NCBI GenBank assembly: GCA_038230535.1
Contig: JBBRNB010000015.1
Location: 3,992-67,991 of the forward strand
Length of the DNA stretch: 64,000 nucleotides
Direction of reading: 5' to 3'
DNA from: Thermoanaerobaculia bacterium
GTDB lineage: Bacteria > Acidobacteriota > Thermoanaerobaculia > Gp7-AA8
In this document: positions 212-49,600 of the stretch, one piece after another
How positions within the stretch are numbered: position 1 is the stretch's first letter
Layout of the letters: each line of letters begins with the position of its first letter
Position numbers and translations under genes: made by a program
Notes under the pieces: model-generated
Seen by the model: only the letters and a program-made list of their open reading frames with translations
Databases searched by the model: none
Told to the model about the DNA's origin: nothing

Positions 212-270
212 GGCGCGCATCGTACGAATGTAGTGGTACGTTCACCATGACCATTGCGACGTTTTTCGAT

Positions 271-22905: not shown

Positions 22906-22917
22906 ATGTTAGTACAA
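22882..22917. promoter_or_regulatory. Candidate operator for the divergent MocR regulator
   Basis: Near-palindrome TTGTTCTAGTACAA (22882-22895) and direct repeat TAGTACAA (22888 and 22910) straddle the back-to-back start codons. Confidence 0.5.
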
Positions 22918-29139: not shown

Positions 29140-29310
29140 CCCGATCCTATCGGTGGAGAGCCTGCCGCAGACCTGCGGTTGCGTTCGGAGCGTCGTTCCG
29201 ATTCCGGGGGCTGAGCGGTGAATCATAGCGGCAATCCTTCCCGCCGTACGTGCGGATCGTCGGATCTCTGCTACATTCGATGCGATGAAAGTGGCAAGGC
29301 TCGTCTCCGG

Positions 29311-30330
29311 ATGAAGGTCAGGGAAGTCGTCACTCTCGCCAGGAGATGGGTCGACGAGACCGGTTCCGCTCTCCCCGGATTCCGCGGTGCCTACCTCGCC
29401 GGCTCGATCAACGAGATGGGGAAGGACGACTCGTTCCCGTCGTTCAAGGACGTCGACATCTATGTCGTCGTCGAGGACCCGAACCGCATCGCCGTCCCTC
29501 AGGAAAAGTTCCTCTACGAAGGGTTCTTGCTGGAGATCGTGTGCAAGAGCCTGGAGGAACATCGCTCCTCTGAGGCCATCCTCTCCGCCTCCTTTGCCGG
29601 CAGCGTGGCAAGCTGCGAGATTCTCTCCGATCCGACGGGACTCCTGCATGAGCTGCGAACGGCCGTTGTTGAGCAGCTCGCTCACCCGAGGTGGATCGCG
29701 GCACGCTGTGAGGTACAGAAGAAGCTCCTCTCCGATCTGATGGGCCAGATCGAGCTCGCTCCTGAGCCCGTGTTCTTTCTCGGCTTCGCCGTTCTGTTTC
29801 TCGGAGGACTCGTCGCTCTGGCGTCCGGGCGGACGCCCACCGCCCGCAGATGTCTCGCTCTCTCACGGGAACTGTTGGAGGGTCACGAGAGACCAGAGCT
29901 TCATGAGGAGATTCTCGGGTTGCAGGGATGCGCGCACATGGAGCGCGAGCAAGTCGTCAGTCACTTGGAGGACTGCGTGCAAGCCTTCGACAGATCGGTG
30001 GAGGTGCTGCACACCCCCTTTTACACATCCTGGAACCTCGATGCCGGCACACGCCCGTATCTCATTGAAGGCGCCTACGAGATGATCGACGCCGGAGAGC
30101 ATCGTGAGGCGATGTTCTGGATCTCCATGATGCACACCATCGCCAACATGGCCATCCAGAACGATGCGCCGGAAGCCGGGAGAAGCCATTACCAGGCAGG
30201 GATGGACCGGCTCAAAGCGGCGCTCGGCATCGCGTCCGCCGCCGAATGGCGGTCACGCATCGATCTCGCCCGAAAGGTCTCCGGCCGGGTGACTCGCTTC
30301 GCCGATGAAGTGGTGGCGAGGTCTACATAA
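29311..30330 (+). CDS. Pol-beta-superfamily nucleotidyltransferase-like protein with helical C-terminal domain
   Basis: GAYLAGS...KDVDIYVV fits the hG[GS]x9-13DhD motif; third acidic strand LLEIV. Confidence 0.7.
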   Translation: MKVREVVTLARRWVDETGSALPGFRGAYLAGSINEMGKDDSFPSFKDVDIYVVVEDPNRIAVPQEKFLYEGFLLEIVCKSLEEHRSSEAILSASFAGSVASCEILSDPTGLLHELRTAVVEQLAHPRWIAARCEVQKKLLSDLMGQIELAPEPVFFLGFAVLFLGGLVALASGRTPTARRCLALSRELLEGHERPELHEEILGLQGCAHMEREQVVSHLEDCVQAFDRSVEVLHTPFYTSWNLDAGTRPYLIEGAYEMIDAGEHREAMFWISMMHTIANMAIQNDAPEAGRSHYQAGMDRLKAALGIASAAEWRSRIDLARKVSGRVTRFADEVVARST

Positions 30331-34479: not shown

Positions 34480-35918
34480 TATTCGGACTCCGGTGTTCCC
34501 ATCAGTTCATGGATCCGGCGGTCGAGTAGCTCCGCCGTCTCCTGCATCAGTTTTTCGGCGATCTGAGCGACGTGTCTCTTGCGCCACGATTCCAGTTCCG
34601 AGCCTTTGACCCATTGATTGAAGGCCCCCAGGGCGGGGCCCGTATGTACCTGAAAATCGACCTGGTTCGTTTCGTCTCCCGTAATGGCGATCCGCGAGCT
34701 GTAGGCGAAATACCATCGAAAGACCAGCGCCATCTTCTGCTTCCGGTCGGTGGCCGCGTTGTCCAGAAGTGCTTGCCGCCCTTTTCGCCGATGGTGTTCC
34801 TGCACCTCCCGCCACACCTCGGCGAACGGCTTCTGGAAGTAAGTCCTCTCGATCTGACTCCTCACCTTTTCGGGAATGTCTTCCCACCCGTCGTAGCGCG
34901 TGTAGAGCATGTGCAGCTTGTTGGCGCGCCCGGGGAACAGCACGCCCTTGCGCAGCACCTGTACCCGCGCCCCTGACTCGAACATGTCTCCGGCCGGCGC
35001 ATAGTCGGTGTCCTGCACGTTGATCACCTGCAGAAGGTCTTTGACGACGTCGCTGGTTCCCGCTTCGACCGTGCACTGGTTGATGGATCCGGTGAGAATG
35101 AAATCGGCGCCCATCATGAACGCGGCAGCCGCCGCTTGAGGGGTCCCGATGCCGCCCGCCAGACCGATGTGAATCCGGCCGCGGTAGCGATGCCTGCTCT
35201 CGATCTGACTCCTCAGGCTCTGCATGGCCGGCAGGAGCACGGTGGCATTGCCTCGGTCCGTATGTCCGGCCGAATCCGCCTCGACGCAAAGGTCGGAGCT
35301 CATCGCAACCTGTGCCGCCAGGCCTGCCTGCTCCTGACTGATCCTTCCTTCGCCCAGCAGCTTTCTGACGATATCCGCCGGCGGTGGGCTGAGAAATGCC
35401 TCCGCGACTTCGGGACGCGAAACCTTTGCGATGACCTTGTGACGGCACTCAACGCAGCCATCGCCGCTCCTCCGCACACCACTGAGGCGGTAGTGGACCA
35501 GGGCTGGCGTCATGGTCGTGAACGCGGCCGCTTCGACGCAGGCGATCCCATGCTTCCGATAGAGATCGACGGTGGCCTCTTCCATCTGAGGATCCTGCGG
35601 GTGGCAGATCAGGTTCACACCAAAGACATCATCCGGCTCGAGGTTCCGCCGGATGAAGCCAATGTCGCGCTCGATGTCATCCAGGCTCCGGCCGCCGGTA
35701 CCGAGAAATCCGAGCAGGCCCGCCTTGCCGATGGCGACGACGAGCTCTTTCGAAGCGATGCCGCCATACATAGCACCCGTGAGATACGCGTAGCGGATGC
35801 GATAACGCCGGCGGAAGCTTGCCGCACCCAGTTGACCGGGACTGATTGTCACGCGGCTGCGCCCATCGTCGATGTCGAGGACCGTTTCCATGGCTGTCAT
35901 GACCGGCTCATCAGGCAT
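34479..35918 (-). CDS. Stand-alone PfaD/FabK-type trans-acting enoyl reductase
   Basis: AYLTGAMYGGIASKELV, EADSAGHTD, LAGGIGTP, DTDYAPAGDMFE, DFQVHTGPALGAFNQW. TAATG overlap with the downstream PKS. Confidence 0.92.
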   Translation of the reverse strand: MPDEPVMTAMETVLDIDDGRSRVTISPGQLGAASFRRRYRIRYAYLTGAMYGGIASKELVVAIGKAGLLGFLGTGGRSLDDIERDIGFIRRNLEPDDVFGVNLICHPQDPQMEEATVDLYRKHGIACVEAAAFTTMTPALVHYRLSGVRRSGDGCVECRHKVIAKVSRPEVAEAFLSPPPADIVRKLLGEGRISQEQAGLAAQVAMSSDLCVEADSAGHTDRGNATVLLPAMQSLRSQIESRHRYRGRIHIGLAGGIGTPQAAAAAFMMGADFILTGSINQCTVEAGTSDVVKDLLQVINVQDTDYAPAGDMFESGARVQVLRKGVLFPGRANKLHMLYTRYDGWEDIPEKVRSQIERTYFQKPFAEVWREVQEHHRRKGRQALLDNAATDRKQKMALVFRWYFAYSSRIAITGDETNQVDFQVHTGPALGAFNQWVKGSELESWRKRHVAQIAEKLMQETAELLDRRIHELMGTPESE

Positions 35919-38900
35919 TGGCTCCTGCAACGGCGCTGTGCAATACAGCCCACGAATCAGAGAACACATTCGCGATCTCGCGCATCCGCTCGCCGCTCAG
36001 TTTGTCCGCCCTGTAGATGAAATAGACATGCAGGTCGTCGTCGTCTTCGATACGGGCGATGCAGGACAGCCAGTATGGATAGCGCTCGACATCCGCGATC
36101 CTGTCGACAGTGCTCGACGCATTGAACACTTCGAAGAACGCGGTGCTTCGCGCTTTCTGAGACTCCGTAGCATCCCCTCTGCCCTGATAGTTGAAATAGA
36201 TTCCCGGAAGCGAGCGGCCGTCGAAACGCTTCCGGGTCTCGTCGTTGTAGTGACTTGCCAGCGTGAAGCTCAACCGCCTCTCCTCGATCACCTCTTTCTG
36301 CCGGCAGATGTCTCTGACGAGCTCCAGGAGGTCCGTGGAGCGCGGGGTCTTCAAAGACAAAGGATAGTTTTCCGAGAACCACCCCAGCGCCTGGCTGCTC
36401 TCGACGGCGAGCAGCGGGTTCTGGCGCGTATTGTAGATCTGCGTCAGATAGACGACGTCTTCCTGGAACGTCAACGTACAGCTCCTGACGAACAGCGCCA
36501 TGATGACGTTCTCGAGGGAGTGCAGCTTCGCTTCCCTTACGAGCGCATCCGCCGCTTCGATGGCGTCCGCCGGAATGCGCACCTTCTCCTGCAGGGTCTC
36601 GGGGATTCCGTCCGATACGCCGATCATGCGGCGCTCGCTGGCCTGGGCCGCCTCCAGTATGCGCAGCCAGTGGTCCTGCCATTGCAGCACGTCATCGTCG
36701 CCGGCCCGCCGTTCCAGAGCCTCCACCCACTCCTGCAGGCTCAATGATGGTCTTCGGACAAACGCCCTGATGAGATCCTCTTCGTCTCTGCAACACAATT
36801 CCAGGAGGTCCAGCAACAGAATCACGGTCACAGGATCGCTGATGAAGTGGTCGATCAGCAGGAAGACGTATCTCGCGGCTCCCCTTTCGACCAGAAAGCA
36901 CTTCACGATCGGCCCGGTTTTCAGATTGATCGCCGCCGTGTGCGTGTCATACAAAGACATGAGCATCTCGGTTGCCACAGCGCCGCCGTCGACGTGTACA
37001 GAGTCCACGGTGATCTTCTCTGTGTCCGGATCGTAGTACTGGAGCCAATCGTCACCGTTCTGACGAACGCGCAGCTTGAACATCGGGTGTTCCAGGAGCG
37101 TTTCCACGTTGCGTTTCACAACGCTCGAGGCGACGTCGCCGATGACCAGATGGGTTACCGGGATGATCATCGTCCGCGGTCCGCCCTCTCGCAGGTTCTC
37201 GCGCTGGACCTTCAGCAACCGGAACGGCTCATTCCAGCGGATGTGGTGCGGCGCTGCCGCAAGTCCGCTTTCGATGGCTCGCGCCAGTGCCGAGATGTTT
37301 CCACACTCGAACAAGGCCTTCAACGGCACATCCACTGACAGTTGCGTGCGAATCCTGAACATCAACTGCGTCGCCAGCAGCGAATGTCCACCCAGAGCGA
37401 AGAAGTCGTCGTCCACGCCGATCCGGTCCGCTTCCAGGTTCAATACCTCCGACCAGATGCGTGCCAGTTTCCGTTCTGTTTCATTGCACGGCGCGCGATA
37501 GGCCAGTCCCGATGCCGGACGTACGTCGAAGCCCGCTAGAACGCGGCGGTCCACCTTGCCGGTCGGAGTCAGCGGAATTGCGCCGAGGCGGACGAATGCC
37601 GCAGGCAGCATGTATTCCGGTAACGTTCGCCGCAGATGGGCTCTCAGTTCCTCCGGCGCGAGCTCGATCGGCGAGTTCTCATCGCTCCCGCGGAAGCGAT
37701 AGAAGGCAATGAGCCGCTTGTCCATCCCCTGCCCCTGTACGACCACGACGCTCTCTTCGACCTCCGGGTGCTGGTTGAGCCTGACTTCGATCTCACCCGT
37801 CTCGACACGAAAGCCTCGGATTTTGACTTGTGTGTCCGCCCTTCCCAGATATTCGAGATTGCCGTCAGGCAGCCAGCGGGCCAGGTCACCAGTCCTGTAC
37901 ATGCGGCTCCCCGTTTGGAACGGATCCGAAGCGAATCTCTCCTGATCGAGCTCCGGCCGGTTCAGATAGCCCCTGGCCAGTCCGGCGCCTGCGATGTACA
38001 GCTCCCCGGGTACACCTATGGGCTGCGGTGAGTTGTGCCGATCGAGGATGTAGATCCGCGTGTTGCTGATGGGCGCACCGATGCTCGGGAAACGACTCCA
38101 CTTCTCTGCGTCCTCGGGCAGGGTATAGGCGGTCACCAGATGCGTCTCGGACGGCCCGTAGTGATTGTGCAGGCGGACGCTGGGGTGTTTCCTGAAGAAC
38201 CTCCGGATCTTGTCATTGATGACAAGCTGTTCCCCTGCGGTAATGATTCTCCGGAGCGGCACGTGGTCATGATCCGCGGTCAGCGCTTCCAGGAGATTCG
38301 TCAGCGCGACATAGGGCAGAAAGATCGTGTGTACATCGTACTGAACGATGAATTTTCCCAGCAACACGGGATCGTTCCTCGTTGCCACATCGGGAATGAC
38401 GAACGTGCAACCGGCTGCCAGGCAAGTGAACAATTCCTGCATGAAGACGTCGAAGGTCGGTTCCGTGAAATTGAGAACGTTCTCGCCTTCCGGGAAACCG
38501 ATCGCTTTCGACTGCCAGAAAATCAGGTTCGTGAGCGTGGTATGCGTGAGTAACACGCCCTTCGGCCTGCCGGTGGAGCCTGAGGTGTAAATCACATACG
38601 CCAGATGGTGCGGCCGAACCTCGCGGAGCAGTTCGCGTTTCCCGCTCTCGCTCCGTGACCACGATCCGTCCAGGGCAATCAGGCGGCTTCCATTCGAGGC
38701 CAGGACATTCGATCTGGCCTCGTCGAGCAGTCCATGGACGAGGACGATGGCCGCCTGACTGTCCCTCACTACATCGGCAAGCCTTTCGTCGGGGAAACGC
38801 GGGTCCAGCGGAACACAGGCACCGCCCGCCTCCAGGATGCCGAGGATCCCGACGACCAGATCGAGGGACCGCTCCGCATACAACGCGACCAGGCTGTCTG

Positions 38901-40641
38901 GCCCGACTCCCAGTGTTTGTAGATGAAGAGCCAGGCTGTGACTACGATTGTGGAGCTGTCTGTAACTCAGCTTTTGCCCGGCGAACAGGATGGCTGTCCT
39001 GTCCGGAGCGATCGCAGCGCGCGCGGTGAACAGCTCATGGATACACTTCTCTCGCGGATACTCAGCGTCCGTGCGGTTGAAGTCCACCAGGAGTTGCCTG
39101 GTCTCAGCGTCATCCAGGTAGTGCAGGCGATCGATGTTCATCGCCGGCGCGGCCACGATGGCCCGGCACAAGGCGCGGAAATGCCCGGTCATGCGCTCGA
39201 TGGTTTCGTGCCTGTAGAGCGAGGTCCTGTATTCGATCGAGCCAGCCAACCCCTCCGGTGCTTCCGTAAAGAAGAGCGTCAGGTCGAATTTGCTGATGCC
39301 ACTCTCCAGAGGATATGGATAGATGTCGTTTCCGAGCGCGCCCATCGGCGCGTTCTGCAGAATCACCATGATCTGGAACAGCGGATTGACGGCCGTGCTG
39401 CGCGCCGGCTGAACGCGTTCGACGACTTTCTCGAACGGCGCATCCTGATGTTCATACGCTTCCAGGCAGGATTCTTTTACGTTTCTCAAGACCGTCAGGA
39501 AATCATCGTCACCCGTCAGCCGGCTTCTAAGGACCTGCGTATTGACGAACATCCCGATGAGGTCTTCCGTTTCGCGATACTGCCGGTTCGCGATCGGACT
39601 GCCGACGCAGATGTCCTCCTGTCCAGTGTAGCGGTAGAGCAACACGTTGACGGCCGTCAGCAGCACCATGAACAGGCTGCTGTCGTGCTGCCTCGCAAGA
39701 GCATTCAGTTGCCCGGTAAGCTCGGGATCAAGACCGAACGTGTACGTGGCCCCGGCAAAACTCTGCGCGGCCGCTCTCGGATAGTCCGTCGCCAGATCCA
39801 GACTCTCCGGCGCACCTGCCAGTTTCTTTTGCCAGTATGCGAGCTGCCGATCGAGCAGCGCGCTCTCCTCCAGCCACTTTCTCTGCCAGACGCTGTAATC
39901 GACATACTGGATCGGCAGGCGAGGCAGCTCCAGGCTCTTCCCCTGGGCAAGGGCATCCATCGCCAGGCCGACTTCCTTGATCAGCAGGCCCATCGACCAG
40001 GCATCACTGACGATGTGATGCATGTTGAGCAGGAGAATGTGCTCCTGTCCGGCGAGCTCGATGACCGTACCCCTGATGAGCGGTCCATTGGCAAGATCGA
40101 AGGGCAACGCCGCTTCCGTCCGGCACACCTGCCTCGCTGCTTCCCGGCGAGCCTGACGGGTCTTGTGATGGCTGCAATCGACGCGCTCGAGGCGAAAGTC
40201 CAGGCGGTCCAGTATCCGCTGGCGAGGCACGCCGTCTTCGCTCGGGAAGACGGTACGCAGATTCTCATGGCGGGCGATGACGAGGTTGTACGCCTGCTCG
40301 AGCAGGCTGATATCCAGTTCACTCCGGATGCTGACGGCCGCGGGAATGTTGTAGGCCGCGCTCTCGGGCTCGAGCTGGTTGATGAACCAGAGCCGCTCCT
40401 GAGCGAAGCTGAGCGGCAACCGGTCGAGCGCGGACCGGTCAATCGGCAAAATCTGCGGGACTCTCTCCGTCGCGTTTCGCTGTTGCAACAGCGAAACGAT
40501 CGCGGCTTTGTTGGCAACGAGCTGTGCCCGAGTGTCGTCGCTCAAAGCTCCCTTCGGAGCCTTGAGCTTGAGCTGGCCGCTCTCTTCCCACAGCTCGATT
40601 CCCCTGGCCTGTACGTTCTCGATGAGTGCGAGGATGGTCAT
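35911..40641 (-). CDS. NRPS: beta-hairpin docking domain-C-A(proline code)-PCP-terminal E/C-like domain
   Basis: TubC-like N-terminus; HHIVSD; YTSGSTG, GPSETH, YRTGD; GGHSLL; terminal domain with DHFISD, GWFSENYP and FNYQGR. Confidence 0.95.
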   Translation of the reverse strand: MTILALIENVQARGIELWEESGQLKLKAPKGALSDDTRAQLVANKAAIVSLLQQRNATERVPQILPIDRSALDRLPLSFAQERLWFINQLEPESAAYNIPAAVSIRSELDISLLEQAYNLVIARHENLRTVFPSEDGVPRQRILDRLDFRLERVDCSHHKTRQARREAARQVCRTEAALPFDLANGPLIRGTVIELAGQEHILLLNMHHIVSDAWSMGLLIKEVGLAMDALAQGKSLELPRLPIQYVDYSVWQRKWLEESALLDRQLAYWQKKLAGAPESLDLATDYPRAAAQSFAGATYTFGLDPELTGQLNALARQHDSSLFMVLLTAVNVLLYRYTGQEDICVGSPIANRQYRETEDLIGMFVNTQVLRSRLTGDDDFLTVLRNVKESCLEAYEHQDAPFEKVVERVQPARSTAVNPLFQIMVILQNAPMGALGNDIYPYPLESGISKFDLTLFFTEAPEGLAGSIEYRTSLYRHETIERMTGHFRALCRAIVAAPAMNIDRLHYLDDAETRQLLVDFNRTDAEYPREKCIHELFTARAAIAPDRTAILFAGQKLSYRQLHNRSHSLALHLQTLGVGPDSLVALYAERSLDLVVGILGILEAGGACVPLDPRFPDERLADVVRDSQAAIVLVHGLLDEARSNVLASNGSRLIALDGSWSRSESGKRELLREVRPHHLAYVIYTSGSTGRPKGVLLTHTTLTNLIFWQSKAIGFPEGENVLNFTEPTFDVFMQELFTCLAAGCTFVIPDVATRNDPVLLGKFIVQYDVHTIFLPYVALTNLLEALTADHDHVPLRRIITAGEQLVINDKIRRFFRKHPSVRLHNHYGPSETHLVTAYTLPEDAEKWSRFPSIGAPISNTRIYILDRHNSPQPIGVPGELYIAGAGLARGYLNRPELDQERFASDPFQTGSRMYRTGDLARWLPDGNLEYLGRADTQVKIRGFRVETGEIEVRLNQHPEVEESVVVVQGQGMDKRLIAFYRFRGSDENSPIELAPEELRAHLRRTLPEYMLPAAFVRLGAIPLTPTGKVDRRVLAGFDVRPASGLAYRAPCNETERKLARIWSEVLNLEADRIGVDDDFFALGGHSLLATQLMFRIRTQLSVDVPLKALFECGNISALARAIESGLAAAPHHIRWNEPFRLLKVQRENLREGGPRTMIIPVTHLVIGDVASSVVKRNVETLLEHPMFKLRVRQNGDDWLQYYDPDTEKITVDSVHVDGGAVATEMLMSLYDTHTAAINLKTGPIVKCFLVERGAARYVFLLIDHFISDPVTVILLLDLLELCCRDEEDLIRAFVRRPSLSLQEWVEALERRAGDDDVLQWQDHWLRILEAAQASERRMIGVSDGIPETLQEKVRIPADAIEAADALVREAKLHSLENVIMALFVRSCTLTFQEDVVYLTQIYNTRQNPLLAVESSQALGWFSENYPLSLKTPRSTDLLELVRDICRQKEVIEERRLSFTLASHYNDETRKRFDGRSLPGIYFNYQGRGDATESQKARSTAFFEVFNASSTVDRIADVERYPYWLSCIARIEDDDDLHVYFIYRADKLSGERMREIANVFSDSWAVLHSAVAGANA

Positions 40642-43600
40642 AGAGTGATTTCCTCGAGCTCGACGCCGGCACCGTTATCCATTGCCGGACGGCGACGGCT
40701 GTCGACCGCGTTCATGACCGCAGCGATGCCTGCGATGGTATGGAAGTCGAACAGGTCCTTTACCTGCAGCTCGACCTCGAACTGGCCGCGAATTCTGGAG
40801 ACCAACTGCGTGGCCAGTAGCGAGTTCCCGCCCAGCTCGAAGAAGCTGTCGTCGACTCCGATTCTCTCCGGGTCGAGGCTCAACAACTGCGCCCAGATGG
40901 CTGCCAGCCGGTTTTCCCGCTCATCGCGTGGGGCCACGCGGAGGTGAATCGATTCCGGACCGCCCGCCATCCGCTCCAGCACGAGGCGATCCAACAGACC
41001 ACTACGGGTGAGAGGCATCTCCTCCACGACGACGAACCGGCCCGGCTGCAGGTGAAGGGGAAGGTTTTCCCTCACATACGCCTGTACGGTGCCGGCAGTG
41101 AGCGCCGTCTCGTGATCTTCGGCTACGAGGAAGGCAAGCAGTTGTTCGCTGTCGTTCTCGTCCCATCTGTGGATGACGTGGCAATCGCGTACGGCAGGGT
41201 GACGCCGGATGACCGCTGCAATCTCCCGTGTCACGAGTTGATAGCCGCTGTACTGTTCGTTCCCACTCTCCAGATCGATAGACCAGCCGCCGTCGTATTT
41301 TCCGGCGAGCGAAGTTTGCAAAGGCTCGCCGCTTCGATTCGTCCGAATGCTCAATCTCCCTCTCCGATGCTGATCGACGACGTCTCCCTGCTCGTCATTG
41401 AGCGTGAGCTCCCTCCCGCCGGCGAGATCCTCCGCCGTCAATGGACCCGGCAGTTCACTCGTCCCCTGGAGGTAGAGCGCCAGTCGTTGCTCCAGTCCCG
41501 GTATGCCGCCGTCCGAGGTGATCAACCGGCGGCGGCTGCTCATGGTCAGGTAGCTCTGCATGTCTTTGTGGCGGCCATCGATGCCGGCGTAGTAGACGCC
41601 AGGCTTCCCGTGGTTGATGATCATGGCCAGCGACTGCATCCCCTGGACTTTGCCGATGCTCATGTAGCCTCTGCGCAAGCCCAGATTCTTCTTCCCTGCG
41701 CTCATTCCCGTACCGGTCCACATCGTCTGCTGGACATTGGTGTAGGCGATCCCGAGCCGCGCAAAGCGTTCATAGCGTCCCAGTTCATACCCTTTGCGAT
41801 ACGCATATGCGGACACTTGCGAACCGCCGAAGGAACCGTTGACCGACCCGATCTCGACGACCTGAATACCCGGCCTGCCGGTGGCGAGCATTTCCAGCAC
41901 TCGGGTGATCCGGTCGTTCTCCCGGATCGATCGTGTGTAATCCCGCGGCTCATTGGCCTGAATTGGACTTTCCCGGACGTCCGATCCGGTGGCTTGCACG
42001 ATCGTCGAGAGAATCAGGCCGCTATCCCTTTCGACGTCGCGGATCTGCCGGCACAACTCGTCCTCATCGTCGTTGATCAGATCGTGCTCGATGTAGATCA
42101 CGCGGCCGGCCGCCATTTCGGCCACGGCCACCAACTCCCGCCACGCCATCTGCCTGGCTTCGGGCTCGCTTCTTCCTGTTACGAGCACGTACTGGTTCTC
42201 GCGCCGCAACAGGAGCTCAGTGGCGACACGCCCGATTCCTCCCAAACCTCCGAGGACGAGACTCAGACCCGCAACGTTGTTACCGGCCGCGCGACGCTGC
42301 CCGGCAGCATCGAAAAGGACATGCTGCAATCGGTACACATGGCGTTGACCATCGCGATAGCGAACGTTACGGCTCTGAACAAAGCCGGCCCGGAGCTCCC
42401 CGGCCAGGGCCTCCTGGGCGGACACTCCCTCACCGATCTCGCAGACTATGGTGTGGCTGTGAGGACGCTCCTGCACGAAACTCTCGAGGAACGCCCTGTC
42501 TCCATTGATGACACAACTGCCGGTCCCTTCATAGAGCCCGATCCACGTCACAGCGAGATCGCTGTACTCGGCCTGCAAGAGCAGTTGCATGACCGCCAAT
42601 TTGGAGGCGGGATCGCCGGTACCGGCAGTCACATGGTCCACGAGAACGAGCTGTTCACGCGGAAGCAGATCCCACTGCTTCAGGAGCCGCGGCAATTCCA
42701 GAGTGATTGCGTCTCGCCGGATCGCTTCGTGACGAGCGTGCGGAGCAGCCGGCCCGGGAACGGTCCAATCGTGTTCGCTGACTACGATGAGGTTGAGCGG
42801 CGGGAGAGCATCCTCGGTGGCGTTGACGGCTGCCTTCGACCAAGTACCCTCATAGAACCAGTCGGGAAGGGTATTCTCGTTCGCTTCTTCGATGTCCACC
42901 TGCTTCAGCCTGCGGTTGTAGTCGCCGCGGACTAGCTGACGAGCCAGTTGTGACCGCTGGATCTTGCCGCTGGTAGTCCTCGGGAACTCATGCTCTTCCA
43001 GCGGGATGATCACATCGGGATTGATGCCCAGCCTATGGCTGACCCGCCCCCTGATCTCCCTGATTGTCTCCGCTCTCGGATCACCGACATACGCGATGCC
43101 GATTCCTTCCGCCCCGCTCTCCCCCTTTTGCACGGGAAAGACCCCGACGCGGCTGGACGCCACGGTCGCAATGTCGCCGACCAGGGTCTCCACTTCATGG
43201 CAGTAGACGTTGACTCCCCTGACGATGATCATCTCCTTCTCTCTGCCCGTGATGTAGAGCCGTCCCTGAGAGATGAAGCCGAGGTCGCCGGTGTTGAACC
43301 AGCCGTCTCCGACGAATGCGGCGGCGTTTGCATCCAAATCCCCGTAATAGCCCGGAGTGATGACGGCGGAGCCTCGGATGTGAAAACGCCCGATCTGCTT
43401 TTCCCGCAGCAGCGTGTTGTCGCGATCCGCGATGCGGATCTCGAGCCCCGGAACCACGGGGCCGAGGGAGATGAACTCCGTGCCGCCCATCTCCATGTAA
43501 CCGGTGTCGATGTCGAAGTCCTTGTTGTAAGTGATCCCCGTGCACGCCTCCGCCATCCCGAACGCGGGTTGCATCGCACGGGGGTCGAAGCCGAGCGGGG

Positions 43601-46600
43601 CGGTCATCTCCAGAAACTCCTGCAGCACACTCCGGTTGACCTGTTCCCCACCGTTGACGAAGTGACGGACGGAGCTCAGGTCGTTGCGGGCTCGCGCATG
43701 AGCCGCCTTCAATGACTCGGAGATCAGCTTGTAGCCGAAGTTCGGCGAGAATATGTAAGTGACCCGGAACCTCTCGATCAGGCGTAGCAGATTCAGAGGA
43801 TCGGTCGTGATGTAGTCCGTCTTGACCTGGATGTCGTGACACTGCAGACAGACGCTCTTCAGATGGACGGTCAGGATCGCCGCGACGTGGTCCACCGGCA
43901 TCCAGTTCAGGCAGACGTCGCTTTCGGAATAACCGTGGAACTGCCGGACGCTCTCGCAGTGAGAGATCAAGCCCCTGTGTGTGATTTGAATGCACTTGGG
44001 CACGCCGGTGCTGCCCGAGGTGAGCTGGTAGTAGGCGATGTCGCCTCCGGACGGCTCATGGAGACGCCCGCTCGGCTCGTTTTCCTTCAGCGCTTCCACC
44101 TCGAGCACCTGCACGCCGGGCAGAACGTCCGACCCGAGAGCCGTCAGAGCCGCACGGTTGCTTCGATTGCAGATCATGCGCGGCTCGCCCAGGTGCTTCC
44201 AGACACCGGCCAGTTTCTGCGCGACCGCGTTTTCCCTCGCATAGACCGGCGGCACGGCGACCGTGACCGGAATGTACCCGCCCAGCACGCAACCCCAGAA
44301 GGCGGTGAAGTGGTCGGCCAGGCTTACACACTGGAGGATCACCGGCGTTCCCACGGCAAGCCGCTTCTCCTGGAGTCCTCGGGTGACGCGGGTGGCCAGA
44401 TCCAGCAACCGACGATAGCTGAGGTGGCCCTCGACGCCGTTCTCGTCGACGACCGTCAGCCCTTTGTCTTCCGCTTCCGCCGCCCGCCGCAGGGCCTCGG
44501 TGATCGTGGCCGGAGCGTTTTCCGGAATGATCAGCGGTCCCCCATCGGCGTATGCGGGCGGCGCGTCCTGATTCCCCGCCGTGCTTTGCTGCGCGGGCAG
44601 ACCGGCCATGCTCGTGCGGTAGCTGGCTTCCTGAACGGCCCCGAGGTCTTGAAGATGGTAAAGCCGCTCCCTCCTGCTGTTCAGACGGCTCTCCAATACG
44701 GCGTCGAGCCGGAATGCCTTGCCTTGCAGGAGATGCCACCACATGCTCTGGCAGACTTCACCTTGCTGGCTGATCCGCGCATCGTCGATCGATGACCACG
44801 ACAACAGGTCGGCTTGTGTGTAGATGAATTCGGTGAGCCCGCCGGCAACGTCCCACAGCGTCTCCACCAGAACCTCATCACTGATGATGCCCTTGTACGA
44901 CGGCCACTGCGGCGGCGTCTCTTCTGCCAGCAGGTCGATGGCGGAGATGAGGCCAACATCGAGCCTCGGATCGGCCTGCAGGCCGATCATGTGTCGTATG
45001 CCGGCGTGATGGATCAACCGGGCAACGTGCGCCGGCTCCTCGGCGACGGGAACGGGCACGATGCTCCTTCCCGACATCAATAGCCCGAGGTAGATGAGGA
45101 TCTTCTCTATGCCATCCGGCAGGTGAACGCCGACACGGCCGCCCGCGGGCAGACCGAGTCGTTCGAGATTGGCCGCGATCCGCCGGCATTGCTCCGCTGC
45201 TTCGGCATAAGTGACCTGTCTGCCTCCTGCGATCAGCGCAATCTCGTCTTCATGCCGGCTGAAGATTCGCTTCAGGCGCGTCTGCACAGTGTCCTTGAAC
45301 TGCGCGGGCCGCCTGGTCCATCGCTGCCTGATCTGCCGCTGCTGGGCGGCGGTCAGCACGGATAGACGCCCGATGGGTCGATGAGGCTCCCGCGCGACCG
45401 TCGTAAGAATGCGCTCGTAGGCAGCGATGAATGCCTCGATTCGGCTCCGCCGGTAGAGGTGGCTCGAGTAGGTCCAGGTTCCCGCAATGGTCTCGCCCCG
45501 ATCGAATACTTCCACGACCTGATCGAAAACGGATACCTGACGATCGAAATCGAACCGCTCGACCGCGCGGCCATTGAAGGTGCCGAAGTCCGGATTCTGT
45601 TGCTGGACGAACGCGTGCTGAATCAGGGGATTTCGATTCGCTTCCCGTTTGACGCCGAGCCGGTCCACGACTTTCTCGAATGGGGCATCCTGATTGGCCT
45701 GGACTTCCCTCGTGCTCCTGTTCAGCTCCACCAGGTAGTCGGTGAACGGCATGCCGGGATCGATCCGGCTGCGGAGCACGACGGTATTGGCAAACATCCC
45801 AATGAGGCCTGCCGTGCCGCCATACTGTCGATTGGCGATTGGACTGCCGATGCAGATGTCTTCCTGCCCGCTGTAGCGGTAAAGCATTCCATTGAAGGCC
45901 GCCAGGAGGATCACATAGAGGCTGCAGTTCTGACTCCGCGCAAGACTCTTCACTTCCCGGGTCAGCCGCGCGTCCAGGTGGAAGGTCTCGATCGCTCCTT
46001 CAAAGCGCTGCACGGCCGGTCTCGGGTAGTCCGTATCCAGGTCCAGACTCTCCGGCATGCCCGCCAGTTTTCCCTGCCAATACGCGAGCTGCCGATCCAG
46101 AACGCCGCTCTCTTCCAGCCACTTTCGTTGCCAGACCGTGTAGTCGACGTATTGAATCGGCAGCGAAGGCAGGTCGTTGCTCCTGCCTTGCATGATCTGG
46201 CTCAACTCTGCCGTAAGAACCCCCATGGACCATGCGTCACTGATGATGTGATGCATGTTGAGCATCAGGACATGCTCTTCCGGAGTGAGTCTGATGATCT
46301 TTCCTCTGATGAGCGGCCCCACGGCCAGATCAAATGGCGTCGCTGCTTCCGCCTGACATATCTCCCGGGCCGTCGTCAGGTGGTGGCGATGTTCCCCATG
46401 GCCGCCGAGATCGATGCGCTCCAGTCTGAAGTCCAGATGGTCCAGGATCCATTGCCGGGCTTCGCCGGCGTCGCTGGGAAATACGGTCCGCAGAGTGTCA
46501 TGGCGGGCGATGACCAGGTTCAGTGCCCGCTCCAGTTGGCCGATGTCCAGCAGCCCTTTGATGCTGACTGCACCGGCGATGTTGTAAATCGCGCTGTCCG

Positions 46601-49600
46601 GCTCCAGTTGATTGATGAACCAGAGCCTCTCCTGCGCGAAGCTCAGCGGCAGTCGATCGAATTCTTCCCTGTTGACAGGGAGGATCGGGGGGATCCGGCT
46701 AGGCGCTGGCAGCGGTTGCGCCGCTTCCGCCGAAGGCTGCTCCTGCACGGACGAAACGGCCAGCTCCGGCACCTGCGTTTGCGACTGGGCGTGTCGAGTC
46801 ACCGTCAAAGCATCGATCTCGGCCCGGTATGCCGCCGCCAGATACGCCGCGAATTGCCGGATGTCGGTATGTTCGAACGCCGCGGCCGGCGACACGTTCT
46901 CCTGCAAGAGGCGACTCGTTTTCTCGATGAGGTCCGTGACGTCGAGAGAAGTGAGGCCTGATTCGAAAAAACCCTGATCGGGAGCGATCTCCGCGATGGG
47001 TCTCTGAAGTTTCAGAGCGAGCTCCTGCTTCAGGAACAGCTCCATCTTCTCTTCCGCGGTCAGGGTGCGCGAGCTCCCTTCGCCAGCCGTCGCGGAAAAT
47101 CGCCATTGTGACGATGTTGCGGGTGAAGATTCTGCGATTGGCGCCGGCATTGTGGAATGACCGGCTTCCGGTGCGGCAGCGACCTCCGCTCGGGCCGGCA
47201 TGTCGATCCAATACCGCTCCCTGGCAAAGGGATAGAGCGGGAGGCTGATGCGCCGCGGTCTTGCGTCTCCATAGAGCGCACGCCAGTCCACCTCGTGTCC
47301 CCGAGCCCACAGGTCCAGCAGCTTTGTGAGCTTCCTATCCTCAATCCAACGATCGACGATCTGCTTCAGATCGTCCCGATCGAAGAGGGCCGGAACGTTT
47401 CCGTTCCCCGCTCTGGCCTCGTAAACGCCGTCGATCTCGCCGCCGACGAGCCATGCCTCCAGTTTTTCGGCCAGCTCATCGACGGTGTTGGCCAGGATGC
47501 CGAGGCGCTCCTCCATCGCTTCCCTGCCCGTTTGCAGCGTGTAGGCGATCGAGCCGAGATCGTCCTTGTTTTCATCGTGGAGGAAGGCCGCGAGGTCGCG
47601 CGCTTTCTGCTTCAGTTGCTCCGGCGTGCGCGCCGATAGCGGAATGGCCACGCCTGGGGGCCGGCCGGCGGCCGCAGTGGGATGGTCGATCCCTGTCGGG
47701 CCGTCGTATTCCTCCACAACGAGGTGTGCATTCGATCCGCCTGCGCCGAACGAAGAGATGCCGGCGATTCTCGGTTGCGCCCGACCGTCGATCATCGGCC
47801 GGTCCCATGCTCGCAACGTCTGATTCACCACGAACGGCGTTTTGTCGAATTCGATATACGGGCTCGGCGGCGACGCATGCAGCGAGGGAGCGATCTGGTG
47901 ATACTGCATCTGCAGCAGGACCTTCGTCAGTCCCGCAATCCCCGCGGCTGACTCGCAATGCCCGATGTTGGACTTTGCGGAGCCGATGAGACAGAACCCG
48001 GTATCGGCAGTGTCGCGCTGGAAGGCCTTGCTCAGCGCCGCGATCTCGATCGGGTCACCCAGCCTGGTGCCGGTGCCGTGCGCTTCGATGTAGCTGACGT
48101 CGCGCGCGTTGACGTTGGCTTCCGCCAGGGCAATGCTGATCGCTCCTGCCTGGGCGATCAGATTGGGAACGGTATAGCGATTCGTCCTCCCGCCGTGATT
48201 GAGCGCGCTTCCTCGTATCACTCCGTAGATGTGGTCGCCGTCTCTCTCGGCTTCGGGCAATCGTTTCAGGACGACTGCCCCCACTCCCTCGCCGGGGATA
48301 TAGCCGTCGCCCCCCTCGCCGAAGCTCCGGCACTCGTTCCCGGCGGAAATCGACTGACCGGCGCTAAGCATCAGGTATTTGTTGGGATGGATGGTGACGT
48401 TTACCCCGCCGGCGATGGCCAGATCGGTGCGCCCCAGTTTCAGATCCTGACAGGCCAGATGAATGGCGGTCAGTGAAGAGGAGCACATGGTGTCCACCGC
48501 CATGCTAGGACCATGGACGTTCAGCACGTACGAGACGCGATTGGCGATGTTCGCCGGATTGCCGGCAAAGGCCATGCGCCTCCCTTGCAGGCTCGCTTCG
48601 GCGCCGAAGAGCTGGTATTCGGCGTACATCACGCCGGCGTAGACGCCGACCTGACCGGCCAGACCAAACGCGTGAGGAATCTGAAGACTGGCGCGCGTGT
48701 AGCCGGCGTCTTCGATGGCCGTCCAGGCGTGCTGCAGGAAGAGGCGCTCCTGGGGATCCAGGAATGGTGCGTCCGCCGGTGCGATGTTGAAGAAGCGGGG
48801 ATCAAATTCATCGACGCCCGGAATGAACCCGCCCCATTTACTGGAGTGGTCTCCGCTCTTCCCTCTATCGTCGCTGTGATACTCCCGCCAATTCCAGCGC
48901 TCTTCGGGAACCTCGACGATGCAGTTCTTCCCTTCGCGCAGGTTTTGCCAGTAAGCCGCGATGCCGGCGGCTTCCGGATACCGGCCGCTCAATCCGATGA
49001 TGGCGATCGGCTCGGCAGCCGTCGTTCGAGAGGGGGCATTGCGCAGCGCGTCGAAGCGTCCGATGGAAGGCCGCAGCGATTCCGGCGGAGTCTCCGCCGA
49101 TTCCATCCGGCCATCTCCTGGAGCGGCAAAGAGCGAAGCCACTGTGTCCGGATACGTCTCGAGGAAGTGCCTGCCTAGTTCATGAACGGTCTGAAACTCG
49201 AAGAAGAGAGTCTTCGGGAGTGAGCCGAAGGTCTTCTCCAGGCGATTGGTGAGATTCATCGCCAGGATCGAATCGATACCATACCTCTCGAACGGAGCCT
49301 GAGAATCGATCTGCGCAACGGGCAGCTTCAGCTCCAGGGAGAGCTGTTCCCTCAGGTAGTCTTCCAGGAGGTTCAGTGTGCTGGCATTCGCGGCGGCGGC
49401 GATCGGCTCGCGCGGTGGCGTGGGGCCCGGCTGCAACGGCCGGTCCGGCAAGGTGCGGCGCATCTTCGCGACGTCGCCTTCCACGACCAGAATCTGTTCG
49501 TGTTCCGAAGCCAGACACTGGCGAAAGGCACGCATGCCGGCCGCCGTCGGCAGCGGGCGGATACCGGTCGCCTCTCGCAGTCTGGCCAGACTCGTTTCGT

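What the first reader, a model, noticed from the sequence alone, without database searches (positions are those of the whole stretch)
40700..46660. Nested depsipeptide module: a dead A domain split around an alpha-keto-acid A and a KR, fused to a trans-AT PKS
Seen: C, then a degenerate A-core start (EIALIAGGRQVTYAE, no TSGSTG). Next is a complete second adenylation domain (QLTSGSTG, WMPVDHVAA with Val where amino-acid A domains have Asp235, FGMAE, FNTGD, RTTSGK) and a KR (GGLGGIG, SAYAYRK). An A-subdomain remnant (REIAAVIRRHPAV...MPLTRSGLLDR, catalytic Lys lost) and a PCP follow. Established: the inner domain resembles the PksJ N-terminal and CrpD/HctE-F keto/hydroxy-acid A domains. Inference: an ester is made between the polyketide and an alpha-hydroxy acid as an extender step in a trans-AT line.
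Basis: partly seen in the sequence, partly recalled or inferred. Interest (0 to 1): 0.75.

Follow-up and report, generated by a model that had tools for sequence, protein, structure and literature searches.

The report
Keto-acid module inside dead adenylation domain
The last module of a giant trans-AT polyketide synthase is a keto-acid-activating, ester-making (depsipeptide) module of a known kind, but built in an undescribed layout in which the active adenylation-ketoreductase pair sits inside the gutted shell of a dead amino-acid adenylation domain.

Summary
On the minus strand, 40641-46655 encodes C, a dead adenylation (A) fragment (A1-A2, A3 without a P-loop), a complete inner A domain, a KR, a complete A C-terminal subdomain (Asub; A10 Lys is Leu) and a PCP. 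It ends a ≥7,784-aa PKS with five KS and no AT.

The inner A-KR unit is a keto-acid ligase (KAL)-KR pair. Its best solved relative, by sequence and by fold, is StsA A-KR-pseudoAsub (6ULW). FAALs score far lower, and the KR keeps its NADPH motif and Ser/Tyr/Lys. That chemistry is inferred, not shown.

The kind is known (Alonzo 2020; the 'C-Ax-KAL-KR-T' modules of PNAS 2026, PMC13643306). The topology is new:
- Published and database relatives keep the dead A's C-terminal part before the KAL, and only two-thirds of an Asub after the KR.
- Here, only A1-A3 precede the KAL, and a whole Asub follows the KR.
- I found six other proteins with this layout, five of them from a syntenic or fragmentary Thermoanaerobaculia/metagenome family. 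The five whose KAL domains could be placed form one clade.
- In the window and those five relatives, the KR's catalytic Lys has moved to the classical YxxxK position.

Verdict: new variant of a known kind, moderate interest.

The parts
46815..47033 (-). Donor carrier domain (ACP/PCP-like, GLTSLD) of the last PKS module (KS-ACP). It precedes the C domain.
   Evidence: Pfam PP-binding, second stretch. The KS before it has Cys/His/His intact: DTMCSSS, EAHGTGT, KSNIGH.
45330..46655 (-). Condensation domain (HHIISDAWS), the presumed ester-forming step.
   Evidence: Pfam Condensation E 2.1e-99. It is 54% identical to the C domain of the next NRPS gene and 73-74% identical to the orthologues.
44802..45293 (-). 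Outer (dead) A domain, N-terminal fragment: A1 (VTYAE), A2 (LMSGRSIVPVPV) and a degenerate A3 (EVLVETLWDVAGGLTEFIYTQADLL, no P-loop). A4-A5 are absent.
   Evidence: Pfam AMP-binding positions 5-100/384, E 4.8e-17. The A1-A2 part is deleted in orthologue L001 and only 45% conserved in L002.
44643..44756 (-). PseudoAsub-N-like element (VCQSMWWHLLQGKAFRLDAVLESRLNSRRERLYHLQDL). It is homologous to the N-terminal ~40 residues of StsA and probably vestigial here.
   Evidence: Aligned to StsA residues 18-60 in the phmmer alignment. Its helix is deleted in L001. AlphaFold2 confidence is low.
42921..44561 (-). Inner, complete adenylation domain of the keto-acid ligase (KAL) type. It has Acore plus its own Asub: A3 QLTSGSTGVPKC, NWMPVDHVAA (Val1236 at the Asp235 position), PAFGMAE, WFNTGDLGF, and A10 RTTSGK (Lys1546).
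   Evidence: Pfam AMP-binding E 7.5e-58. Sequence hits: 6ULW 438 bits, McyG 384 bits, FAAL 158 bits. AlphaFold2 pLDDT is mostly above 85, and Foldseek ranks 6ULW, 4R0M and 6ULX first. 68-72% identical to the orthologues.
41568..42905 (-). Ketoreductase, structural plus catalytic subdomains: GGLGGIG, GRS, Ser1919, Tyr1932, Lys1936 (YAYRK), and Asn1895 at the column where PKS-type KRs have the catalytic Lys.
   Evidence: Pfam KR aa 1779-1962. In a 94-KR alignment the window is the only one with N at the Lys column and K at Tyr+4. YA(Y/W)RK is conserved in L001, L002 and P0241-P0243. The catalytic half is 71-75% identical to the orthologues.
41265..41408 (-). Degenerate relics of the outer A core between KR and Asub: a hairpin LTLNDEQGDVVDQHRRGRLSIRT (like the strand pair before A6) and an A7-like LQTSLAGKYDGGWSIDLES (the TGD Asp is lost).
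   Evidence: Gapless motif alignment by eye, which is clearer in L001 and P0338. The canonical-A HMM match reaches A7 in L002. The pre-A6 part is only suggestive, iE 0.1-0.7. AlphaFold2 does not predict it as ordered.
40956..41252 (-). Outer A domain C-terminal subdomain, complete: A8 half (YSGYQLVTREIAAVIRRHPAV), A9 (LPLHLQP) and A10 (MPLTRSGLLDR, Lys replaced by Leu2202).
   Evidence: Pfam AMP-binding_C positions 1-75/76, E 5e-14. Canonical-A HMM 67.8 bits from A8 onward, against 12-20 bits and only the last two-thirds for ordinary modules. AlphaFold2 pLDDT 85-97. The Lys is lost in all six relatives.
40719..40910 (-). Acceptor PCP (FFELGGNSLLAT).
   Evidence: Pfam PP-binding aa 2231-2294. 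76-79% identical to the orthologues. Together with the Asub it matches canonical NRPS A-PCP at 40-45% identity.
40641..40664 (-). C-terminal tail VELEEITL, conserved in the orthologues. It is a likely docking peptide for the TubC_N-type docking domain of the next protein. The stop codon overlaps the next ATG (ATGA).
   Evidence: TubC_N is at the start of the next ORF. That it acts as a docking peptide is inference.
35911..40641 (-). Next assembly-line protein: TubC_N dock, C, A (hand-read code DVQ-IAH-VK, proline-like), PCP, and a terminal C-like domain (DHFISD).
   Evidence: Pfam, sequence. Syntenic in L001, L002 and L005.

Best explanation
This is an alpha-keto-acid (depsipeptide) extension module at the C-terminus of a trans-AT PKS. 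Proposed cycle:
1. The inner KAL domain adenylates an alpha-keto acid and loads it on the module's PCP.
2. The embedded NADPH-dependent KR reduces it to an alpha-hydroxyacyl thioester.
3. The C domain attacks the ACP-bound polyketide with that hydroxyl and makes an ester. The polyketide comes from a KS-ACP module and so is probably a beta-keto acyl chain.
4. The chain passes through a docking pair to a proline-like C-A-PCP module.

The outer A domain is catalytically dead. It has no P-loop and no A4-A5, and both the A7 Asp and the A10 Lys are lost. It survives as a scaffold. Its complete Asub-PCP takes the place of the split pseudoAsub of StsA-type modules, and its N-terminal stub is decaying.

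Shown here: the domain anatomy, the homology, the conservation and the folds. Inferred: the substrate class, the reduction, the ester bond and the scaffold role.
For: **Anatomy.** Pfam on the whole module and on the separate pieces.

**Identity of the inner A-KR unit.**
- Best PDB sequence hit is StsA A-KR-PCP, 6ULW, E 7.5e-130, covering the pseudoAsub-N element, the A domain and the KR.
- The AlphaFold2 model (pLDDT 78) has 6ULW as its top Foldseek hit, E 1.8e-77, TM 0.63-0.66 over about 1,190 residues.
- FAALs score far lower, 158 against 438 bits.

**Catalytic motifs.**
- The KAL A3, A5 (FGMAE), A7 and A10 Lys are intact, and a hydrophobic Val sits at the Asp235 position.
- The KR has GGLGGIG, GRS, Ser, Tyr and Lys.

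**Conservation, which argues for function.** Against the 60%-identical orthologues, C is 73-74% identical, KAL 68-72%, the KR catalytic half 71-75% and PCP 76-79%. The outer A1-A2 is 45% identical or deleted.

**Outer Asub is complete, unlike ordinary modules.**

**Family chemistry (literature).**
- KAL-KR modules make hydroxy acids for ester links, and Ax domains are inactive: PMC13643306.
- StsA pseudoAsub: PMC10510592.

**trans-AT context.**
Against: - No biochemical evidence exists, and the keto-acid side chain cannot be predicted. The pocket motifs differ from StsA and from the nearest relatives.
- As an A domain alone, McyG (a phenylpropanoid-activating loader) scores slightly higher than the StsA A domain (384 against 316 bits).
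- The KR active site is unusual (Asn/Ser at the PKS Lys column, Lys at Tyr+4) and has not been shown to be active.
- The C domain is 54% identical to the amide-forming C of the next module and carries no recognisable ester signature.
- The preceding PKS module lacks a KR, so the embedded KR could have another or an additional substrate.
Confidence: 0.7

Rival explanations
1. There is no true nesting. This is the ordinary published architecture (C-[Ax remnant]-KAL-KR-split pseudoAsub-T), and the piece after the KR is just the usual pseudoAsub C-part.
For: A pseudoAsub-N-like element precedes the KAL, as in StsA. The HMM of ordinary post-KR tails does align weakly (about 15 bits) to the end of the window's Asub.
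Against: - The KR-Tyr-to-PCP spacing is 321 aa, against about 190 aa (range 138-208, one outlier at 268) in the roughly 80 relatives where it could be measured.
- The ordinary-tail HMM leaves about 126 aa unaccounted for.
- The canonical-A HMM matches from A8 onward at 42-80 bits in the nested family. In ordinary tails it scores 12-20 bits and covers only the last two-thirds.
- Pfam AMP-binding_C is matched end to end, and AlphaFold2 folds a whole Asub.
- In the relatives inspected that keep an Ax remnant, it is the C-terminal part of Ax, placed before the KAL. Here the N-terminal part is kept.
Confidence: 0.07
2. The inner A domain loads something other than an alpha-keto acid (an alpha-hydroxy, aryl/phenylpropanoid or fatty acid). 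The KR then acts on the beta-keto group of the incoming polyketide, or is only structural.
For: - McyG is the best A-only hit in the PDB.
- The upstream module is KS-ACP with an active-looking KS and no KR.
- From my own knowledge: the PksJ KR is reported to reduce both alpha- and beta-ketones (Calderone et al. 2008).
- The KR active site is atypical.
Against: - The whole A-KR unit, including the linker and the pseudoAsub-N element, is homologous to StsA.
- The KAL groups with KAL-KR modules in the NJ tree.
- The residue at the Asp235 position is hydrophobic, and FGM(A/S)E is conserved as in KALs.
- FAALs are distant.
- The KR lies between the KAL and the PCP, as in every characterised keto-acid module (PMC13643306).
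Confidence: 0.15
3. The module is an evolutionary wreck that is skipped or inactive. The line passes the polyketide directly to the next C domain.
For: The module carries several decayed pieces: the outer A fragments and the vestigial pseudoAsub-N element. Its C domain is a paralogue of the next one.
Against: All catalytic motifs of C, KAL, KR and PCP are intact. These domains are the best conserved parts across orthologues of 49-72% identity, while the dead parts drift or are deleted. The layout persists in a 35%-identical NRPS (P0338).
Confidence: 0.05

Closest known systems
StsA / CesA / Vlm-type keto-acid modules (A-KR-pseudoAsub-PCP; structure 6ULW, Alonzo et al. 2020)
   Same: An intact keto-acid A domain is followed directly by a KR and then a PCP. 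An N-terminal helix-strand element precedes the A domain. It is the best match by both sequence and fold.
   Different: In StsA the pseudoAsub is split: about 30 aa before the A domain and about 70 aa after the KR (PMC10510592). In the window a complete, unsplit Asub with A8-A10 follows the KR, and the N-terminal element looks redundant. The KR Lys is at Tyr+4 rather than at the PKS-type position.
Five-domain C-Ax-KAL-KR-T modules (Dol15D-M2, PyrG, HctF-M1, HcaB, HapC; PNAS 2026, PMC13643306)
   Same: A dead canonical A domain with a degenerate A3 coexists with an active embedded KAL and a KR in an elongation module that makes a depsi bond. Ax decay forms a continuum.
   Different: In those modules Ax (A1-A10, or A6-A10 in reduced forms) lies entirely upstream of the KAL. 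In the window only A1-A3 lie upstream, and A7*-A10* lie downstream of the KR. The host is a trans-AT PKS from an acidobacterial lineage, not an actinobacterial or cyanobacterial NRPS.
Interrupted A domains (M, Ox domains inserted at a2-a3 or a8-a9; Garneau-Tsodikova classification, PMC8341866)
   Same: Another enzyme is embedded within the sequence of an A domain.
   Different: In those cases the host A domain stays active and only one auxiliary domain is inserted. Here the host has lost A4-A5 and its catalytic residues, and the insert is itself an A domain plus a KR. The review states that KR modules are 'not true interruptions'. In this lineage they are.
PksJ (bacillaene) and McyG loading A domains
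   Same: The A domains belong to the same broad clade. A database hit is named 'polyketide synthase PksJ' (P0077), and McyG scores 384 bits. PksJ also sits in a trans-AT PKS context.
   Different: Those are loading or N-terminal A-PCP units with no embedded KR or pseudoAsub. The window's unit is an in-line extender with its own KR.
Fatty acyl-AMP ligases (FAAL; 3PBK, FadD32)
   Same: ANL fold, with an acyl-adenylate passed to a carrier protein.
   Different: Much weaker similarity: 158 bits or less, against 438 bits for StsA. They rank below the keto-acid and McyG domains in the fold search.

Membership tests
KAL-KR keto-acid (depsipeptide) NRPS module | A domain of the KAL clade with intact adenylation motifs (A3 P-loop, A7 Asp, A10 Lys) | tested here: met
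   QLTSGSTGVPKC, WFNTGDLGF and RTTSGK are present. The best hits are StsA, McyG and KAL-KR proteins. It groups with KAL-KR modules in the NJ tree.
KAL-KR keto-acid (depsipeptide) NRPS module | Asp235 replaced by a hydrophobic residue | tested here: met
   NWMPVDHVAA has Val1236, aligned to Leu of StsA WMPLDH. The position was assigned by motif alignment, not by superposing structures.
KAL-KR keto-acid (depsipeptide) NRPS module | KR directly after the A domain, with an NADPH motif and catalytic Ser/Tyr/Lys | tested here: met
   GGLGGIG, GRS, Ser1919, Tyr1932 and Lys1936 are present. The Lys is at the classical YxxxK position, not the PKS-type one. The arrangement is conserved in five relatives.
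KAL-KR keto-acid (depsipeptide) NRPS module | Split pseudoAsub (N-part before the A domain, about 70 aa after the KR) | tested here: not met
   The N-part is present but dispensable, being half deleted in L001. What follows the KR is a complete Asub, not a 70-aa C-part.
KAL-KR keto-acid (depsipeptide) NRPS module | Adenylates alpha-keto acids and reduces them on the PCP | not testable with these tools
   Needs enzyme assays.
Five-domain C-Ax-KAL-KR-T (Dol15D-M2/PyrG type) | Ax with A1-A10 (or its C-terminal part) lying upstream of the KAL | tested here: not met
   Only A1-A3 lie upstream, and about 15 aa separate A3* from the pseudoAsub-N element. Compare P0028 and P0040, where Ax A1-A10 all lie upstream.
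Five-domain C-Ax-KAL-KR-T (Dol15D-M2/PyrG type) | Ax has a degenerate A3 and is catalytically dead | tested here: met
   A3 reads TLWDVAGGLTE in place of TSGSTGxPKG. A4-A5 are absent, the A7 Asp is lost and the A10 Lys is Leu.
Interrupted A domain (active host A with an inserted tailoring domain) | The host A domain keeps all core motifs and its activity | tested here: not met
   See the Ax rows above: the host is dead.
Fatty acyl-AMP ligase | Closest relatives are FAALs | tested here: not met
   3PBK scores 158 bits, against 438 for 6ULW and 384 for McyG. The FAAL-specific insertion was not examined.
trans-AT PKS | KS-containing modules without an integrated AT, KS-linker of RhiE type, trans-acting enzymes | tested here: met
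   There are five KS, and no Acyl_transf_1 hit in any PKS ORF. RhiE-like and CurL-like linkers and a PfaD-type ER gene are present. No discrete AT gene was identified in the window, and the region upstream of the PKS gene lies outside it, so that was not tested.

The most novel reading that the evidence does not exclude
A separate, monophyletic lineage of keto-acid modules may exist with the following properties.
- A [pseudoAsub-N]-KAL-KR cassette was grafted into the middle of a canonical A domain, replacing A4 to about A6.
- The resident, unsplit Asub-PCP took over the job of the split pseudoAsub.
- In the Thermoanaerobaculia branch, the KR then moved its catalytic Lys back to the classical SDR YxxxK position.

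If so, this would be a natural blueprint for converting an amino-acid module into a hydroxy-acid module. It would also be the first in-line depsi extender in a trans-AT PKS that I could find, and it would make an unknown glycosylated polyketide-depsipeptide in an acidobacterial class with almost no characterised natural products.
Probability: 0.5. Interest if true: 0.6.

Novelty: new variant of a known kind. Interest (0 to 1): 0.45.

Why it matters
Keto-acid modules are the way assembly lines write esters into peptide and polyketide backbones. A 2026 paper presented the 'dead A plus embedded KAL' layout as a noncanonical solution whose origin is unresolved.

This window adds a third layout, conserved from 35% to 72% identity. 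The dead A domain truly brackets the KAL-KR pair, and a whole Asub replaces the split pseudoAsub.
- It gives a second data point on how such modules arise, namely by cassette insertion into an A domain.
- It suggests concrete fusion points for engineering: after A3 and before A7/A8.
- It shows that the N-terminal stub and the pseudoAsub-N element are dispensable, because nature has already deleted them in L001.

It also flags an orphan trans-AT PKS-NRPS-glycosyltransferase cluster in Thermoanaerobaculia-like bacteria. The cluster has a KR with a reverted catalytic-Lys position, which is a testable oddity for SDR enzymology.

Tried and rejected
1. **A separate pseudoAsub C-part followed by an extra Asub.** I first read aa 2030-2100 this way. 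I rejected it after the HMM of ordinary post-KR tails aligned to the KR end and then jumped to the last two-thirds of the outer Asub. The region is better read as A-core relics, but the pre-A6 hairpin is only suggestive (iE 0.1-0.7), and AlphaFold2 leaves it disordered.
2. **Mixed alignment A2** (KR homologues plus NRPS fragments). It was visibly misaligned, so I did not use it for folding. A3 was used instead.
3. **Exact-sequence look-up of a window protein**. It found nothing: neither that look-up nor the first homologue search found any window protein in the collection.
4. **Second homologue search, post-KR to PCP**. It found only canonical A-PCP fragments covering half the query. The relatives were found by the genome scan and the representative search.
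5. **Substrate prediction.** A hand-read specificity code (V-D-A-N-V-G-A-T-G-K) matches no characterised KAL that I could compare, so no side chain is proposed.
6. **Origin of the outer A N-fragment.** It shows no special affinity to the Ax domains of five-domain modules over functional A domains, so its origin stays open.
7. **Literature searches for a KAL-KR module in a trans-AT PKS**. They found no example. That is absence in the held library only.
8. **A full-module model could not be made.** The module exceeds the 1,200-residue limit, so contacts between the outer fragments were not examined.

Full report
**Where it lies**

The finding sits at the 3' end of a minus-strand ORF, 40638-63992. 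The ORF is at least 7,784 aa, and its frame is still open at the window edge. Pfam finds five KS, two DH, three KR and several carrier domains with RhiE/CurL-type KS linkers. It finds no AT domain anywhere.

The genes that follow on the same strand are:
- an NRPS (TubC_N dock, C, A, PCP, C-like; 35911-40641), whose ATG overlaps the PKS stop codon;
- a PfaD-type trans-ER (34479-35969);
- a second PKS (DH-KR-ACP-KS; 30433-34479);
- a glycosyltransferase (27871-29685).

Below about 27.8 kb the genes are housekeeping ones. 'Fused to a trans-AT PKS' is therefore correct. I number residues by the translation of window:40638-47600(-).

| Element | Residues | Evidence |
|---|---|---|
| C domain | 316-757 | Pfam Condensation |
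| Outer A N-fragment | 770-948 | Alone matches AMP-binding positions 5-100/384, E 4.8e-17. A1 and A2 are recognisable. A3 is TLWDVAGGLTE, with no P-loop |
| StsA-like N-terminal element | 949-986 | Aligns to StsA residues 18-60 |
| Inner A | ~1014-1560 | Has every core motif, including its own Asub and the A10 Lys (RTTSGK) |
| KR | 1566-2011 | Pfam KR |
| Outer Asub | 2117-2215 | AMP-binding_C end to end, E 5e-14. A10 is PLTRSGLLDR (Lys to Leu) |
| PCP | 2231-2294 | Pfam PP-binding |

**What the inner unit is**

- Against the PDB by sequence, the best hit is StsA A-KR-PCP (6ULW, E 7.5e-130, 438 bits). The match covers the N-terminal element, the A domain and the KR.
- Next come the McyG A-PCP (384 bits) and the StsA A domain alone (316 bits). 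FAALs score 158 bits or less.
- An AlphaFold2 model of aa 940-2139 has mean pLDDT 78, with the KAL mostly above 85. Its top Foldseek hits are the four chains of 6ULW (E about 1e-77, TM 0.62-0.66 over about 1,190 residues), then McyG, then the StsA A domain, then FAALs.
- The residue aligned to Asp235 is Val (NWMPVDH; StsA has Leu there).

The inner domain is not a FAAL, and the KR looks competent.

**The KR has an unusual active site**

I aligned 94 KRs from KAL-KR proteins.

| Column | Relatives (93) | Window |
|---|---|---|
| PKS-type catalytic Lys | K (82), R (10), G (1) | Asn |
| Tyr+4 | N (76), S (11), C (6) | Lys (YAYRK) |

The window is the only sequence with this combination. It is the classical SDR YxxxK arrangement. 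From general knowledge, PKS-type KRs have the Lys and Asn positions swapped relative to classical SDRs. So this reads as a reversion that should keep a Ser/Tyr/Lys triad.

YA(Y/W)RK, with Asn or Ser at the other column, is conserved in five relatives of 49-72% identity. The KR catalytic half is 71-75% identical to the 60%-identical orthologues. That argues for an active enzyme.

**This kind of module is already described**

- Alonzo et al. 2020 showed that keto-acid modules have an intact A domain and KR flanked by a split pseudoAsub (summarised in PMC10510592, and PMC8341866).
- A September 2026 PNAS paper (PMC13643306) describes 'C-Ax-KAL-KR-T' modules: Dol15D-M2, PyrG, HctF-M1, HcaB and HapC. 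In these a dead A domain (Ax, with degenerate A3) accompanies an embedded keto-acid AMP ligase (KAL).
- That paper reports 125 such homologues and a continuum of Ax reduction. The reduced forms retain A6-A10.

The general idea of a dead A domain plus a keto-acid A domain plus a KR is therefore not new.

**The topology differs from the published one**

I compared the window with 120 database relatives (the best are 46-48% identical, none with a KS) and read several in full.

*Upstream of the KAL.* In the relatives read in full that keep an Ax remnant, it is the whole Ax (A1-A10) or its C-terminal part, and it lies before the pseudoAsub-N element. The window instead keeps only A1-A3 there.

*Downstream of the KR.* The KR-Tyr-to-PCP-Ser spacing is about 190 aa (138-208) in nearly all of the roughly 80 relatives where it could be measured (one probably mis-detected outlier at 268). 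It is 321 aa in the window. Three tests show what fills the extra length:
- An HMM of ordinary post-KR tails aligns to the KR end and then to the last two-thirds of the window's Asub. About 126 aa are left over.
- A canonical-A HMM matches the window and its relatives from A8 onward, and from A7 in L002, at 42-80 bits. Ordinary tails score only 12-20 bits, over the last two-thirds of the Asub.
- AlphaFold2 folds aa 2114-2302 as a complete Asub plus PCP at pLDDT 85-97.

*Relics.* Between the KR and A8 there are relics that align without gaps to A7-A8. For example, L001 KTSLIGRYDFDGCIDLET..SGYQIELGKIE matches RTGDLARYLPDGNIEFLGR..RGFRIELGEIE. A hairpin resembles the strands before A6. It is clearest in P0338 (VLNRRGDRLPQGIPGFLSL), but it is statistically only suggestive.

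The layout is therefore C - A(A1, A2, A3*) - pseudoAsubN-like - KAL - KR - A(relics, A7*, A8*, A9, A10*) - PCP.

**The layout is a lineage, not a one-off**

- A genome scan found two Thermoanaerobaculia MAG loci (L001, L002) with 60-67% identity across KS-linker to PCP. The downstream NRPS, ER, PKS and GT genes are the same.
- A search of 1.84 billion representative proteins, using KR tail to Asub as the query, found only four proteins that match in one stretch:

| Protein | Identity | Source |
|---|---|---|
| P0241 | 72.5% over the whole module | JGI metagenome, syntenic as L005 |
| P0242 | 76% over the query stretch | Thermoanaerobaculia fragment |
| P0243 | 49% over the query stretch | Thermoanaerobaculia fragment |
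| P0338 | 35% | 5,681-aa pure NRPS from an ENA metagenome |

- All have the same layout, and all have lost the A10 Lys.
- In a neighbour-joining tree of 108 KAL domains, the five nested members that could be included form a clade in 100 of 100 bootstraps. In an earlier midpoint-rooted tree without P0241 and P0338, the window, L001 and L002 sat beside a 39-member clade of ordinary modules, with further KAL-KR groups branching deeper. These are rough distance trees, not a rooted likelihood analysis.
Its closest relatives suggest a Thermoanaerobaculia-like acidobacterium (inference).

**Which parts matter**

Identity to L001 / L002:

| Part | L001 | L002 |
|---|---|---|
| C | 74% | 73% |
| KAL core | 68% | 68% |
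| KAL Asub | 72% | 69% |
| KR catalytic half | 71% | 75% |
| PCP | 76% | 79% |
| Outer Asub | 60% | 55% |
| Relic region | 48% | 43% |
| Degenerate A3 | 33% | 40% |
| Outer A1-A2 | deleted | 45% |

L001 has also lost the helix of the pseudoAsub-N-like element. So the catalytic domains and the Asub-PCP are under constraint. The N-terminal stub and the pseudoAsub-N element are decaying.

My reading, which is inference: the complete Asub does the job that the split pseudoAsub does in StsA, positioning the KR and PCP. That makes the N-terminal complement redundant. A pseudoAsub-N element only makes sense in a split arrangement. Together with the tree position, its presence favours one origin: a [pseudoAsubN-KAL-KR] cassette from an ordinary module was grafted into a canonical A domain. 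The alternative is that this is the ancestral state. The evidence is weak.

The module's C domain is 54% identical to the C domain of the next gene. The outer Asub-PCP is 38.5% identical to that gene's Asub-PCP, and the outer N-stub only 23%. This fits a duplicated C-A-PCP module whose A domain was gutted.

**Mechanism (inferred)**

1. The last PKS module is KS-ACP. Its KS has Cys/His/His intact and the module has no reductive domains, so it probably delivers a beta-ketoacyl-S-ACP.
2. The KAL loads an alpha-keto acid on the PCP.
3. The KR reduces it.
4. The C domain makes the ester.
5. The conserved tail VELEEITL presumably docks to the TubC_N domain of the next protein. The A domain of that protein has a proline-like code (DVQ-IAH-VK, read by hand). 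In P0242 the two proteins are fused.

The keto acid's side chain cannot be called. The pocket motifs (NWMPVDHVAAIL, VNGGE, FGMAEACTGI) are conserved within the Thermoanaerobaculia family but differ from StsA and from the nearest ordinary relatives.

Because the preceding module lacks a KR, a second role for the embedded KR on the beta-keto group cannot be excluded.

**Verdict**

The chemistry rests on family precedent. It is a member of the functional class of KAL-KR depsipeptide modules, but it fails two structural criteria of the described architectures: it has no split pseudoAsub, and its Ax is not wholly upstream. I file it as a new variant of a known kind.

I found no report of such a module inside a trans-AT PKS in the held literature. 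That is not proof that none exists. Interest is moderate. It is a useful natural experiment for module evolution and engineering, and it points to an orphan cluster in a little-studied phylum. It is not a new principle.

Noticed in passing
window 41793-41930 (-), KR active site: The KR has Asn at the PKS-type catalytic Lys column and Lys four residues after the Tyr (YAYRK). This is the classical SDR arrangement and is unique among 94 KAL-module KRs. It is conserved in the Thermoanaerobaculia relatives, but not in P0338, which has K at the Lys column and Q at Tyr+4.
   Followed up: yes
window 35911-40641 (-): The downstream NRPS ends in an extra C-like domain of about 430 aa with DHFISD instead of HHxxxDG. 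It may be a release or cyclisation domain, since no TE was seen in the window. Its A domain has a proline-like code (read by hand). Its N-terminal C domain is a 54%-identical paralogue of the C domain in the nested module.
   Followed up: partly
window 47034-48600 (-) approx., last PKS module: The module feeding the C domain is KS-ACP only. Its KS has an intact Cys/His/His triad, so the donor would be a beta-keto thioester unless a trans-acting or the embedded KR reduces it.
   Followed up: partly
window 40638-40664 (-) and P0242: The conserved C-terminal tail (V/A)E(L/F)E(E/D)xTL faces a TubC_N docking domain on the next protein, and the stop codon overlaps the next start (ATGA). In the relative P0242 the two proteins are fused into one polypeptide.
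   Followed up: partly
L001:5100-5300 and L002:10300-10570: The orthologues form a natural deletion/insertion series in the dead A stub. L001 lacks A1-A2 and the helix of the pseudoAsub-N-like element. L002 carries about 60 extra residues between A2 and the degenerate A3.
   Followed up: yes
P0338 (ENA metagenome protein, residues ~640-2720): The same nested layout occurs at 35% identity in a 5,681-aa multimodular NRPS with no KS. The layout is therefore older than, and independent of, the trans-AT PKS context.
   Followed up: partly
window 30433-34479 (-) and 63992 edge: PKS2 starts with a DH and ends with a KS plus linker. In the window the big PKS reading frame begins at a KS and is open to the window edge. 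These are split modules, and the gene order is probably not colinear with the assembly order. No trans-AT gene was identified in the window.
   Followed up: no
window 3983-10399 (+): A 2,138-aa protein with four GEVED domains, three SdrD B-like domains and DUF11/SpaA-like folds. It is probably a large secreted or surface repeat protein unrelated to the cluster.
   Followed up: no
window 247-1674 (+), 22906-24225 (+), 22234-22905 (-): Two GntR-aminotransferase fusion (MocR-type) regulators. One is divergently paired with a pyridoxamine-phosphate-oxidase-family gene.
   Followed up: no
window 24491-27058 (+): A hybrid GAF-PAS histidine kinase with two receiver domains lies next to the glycosyltransferase end of the cluster. 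It is a possible regulator.
   Followed up: no
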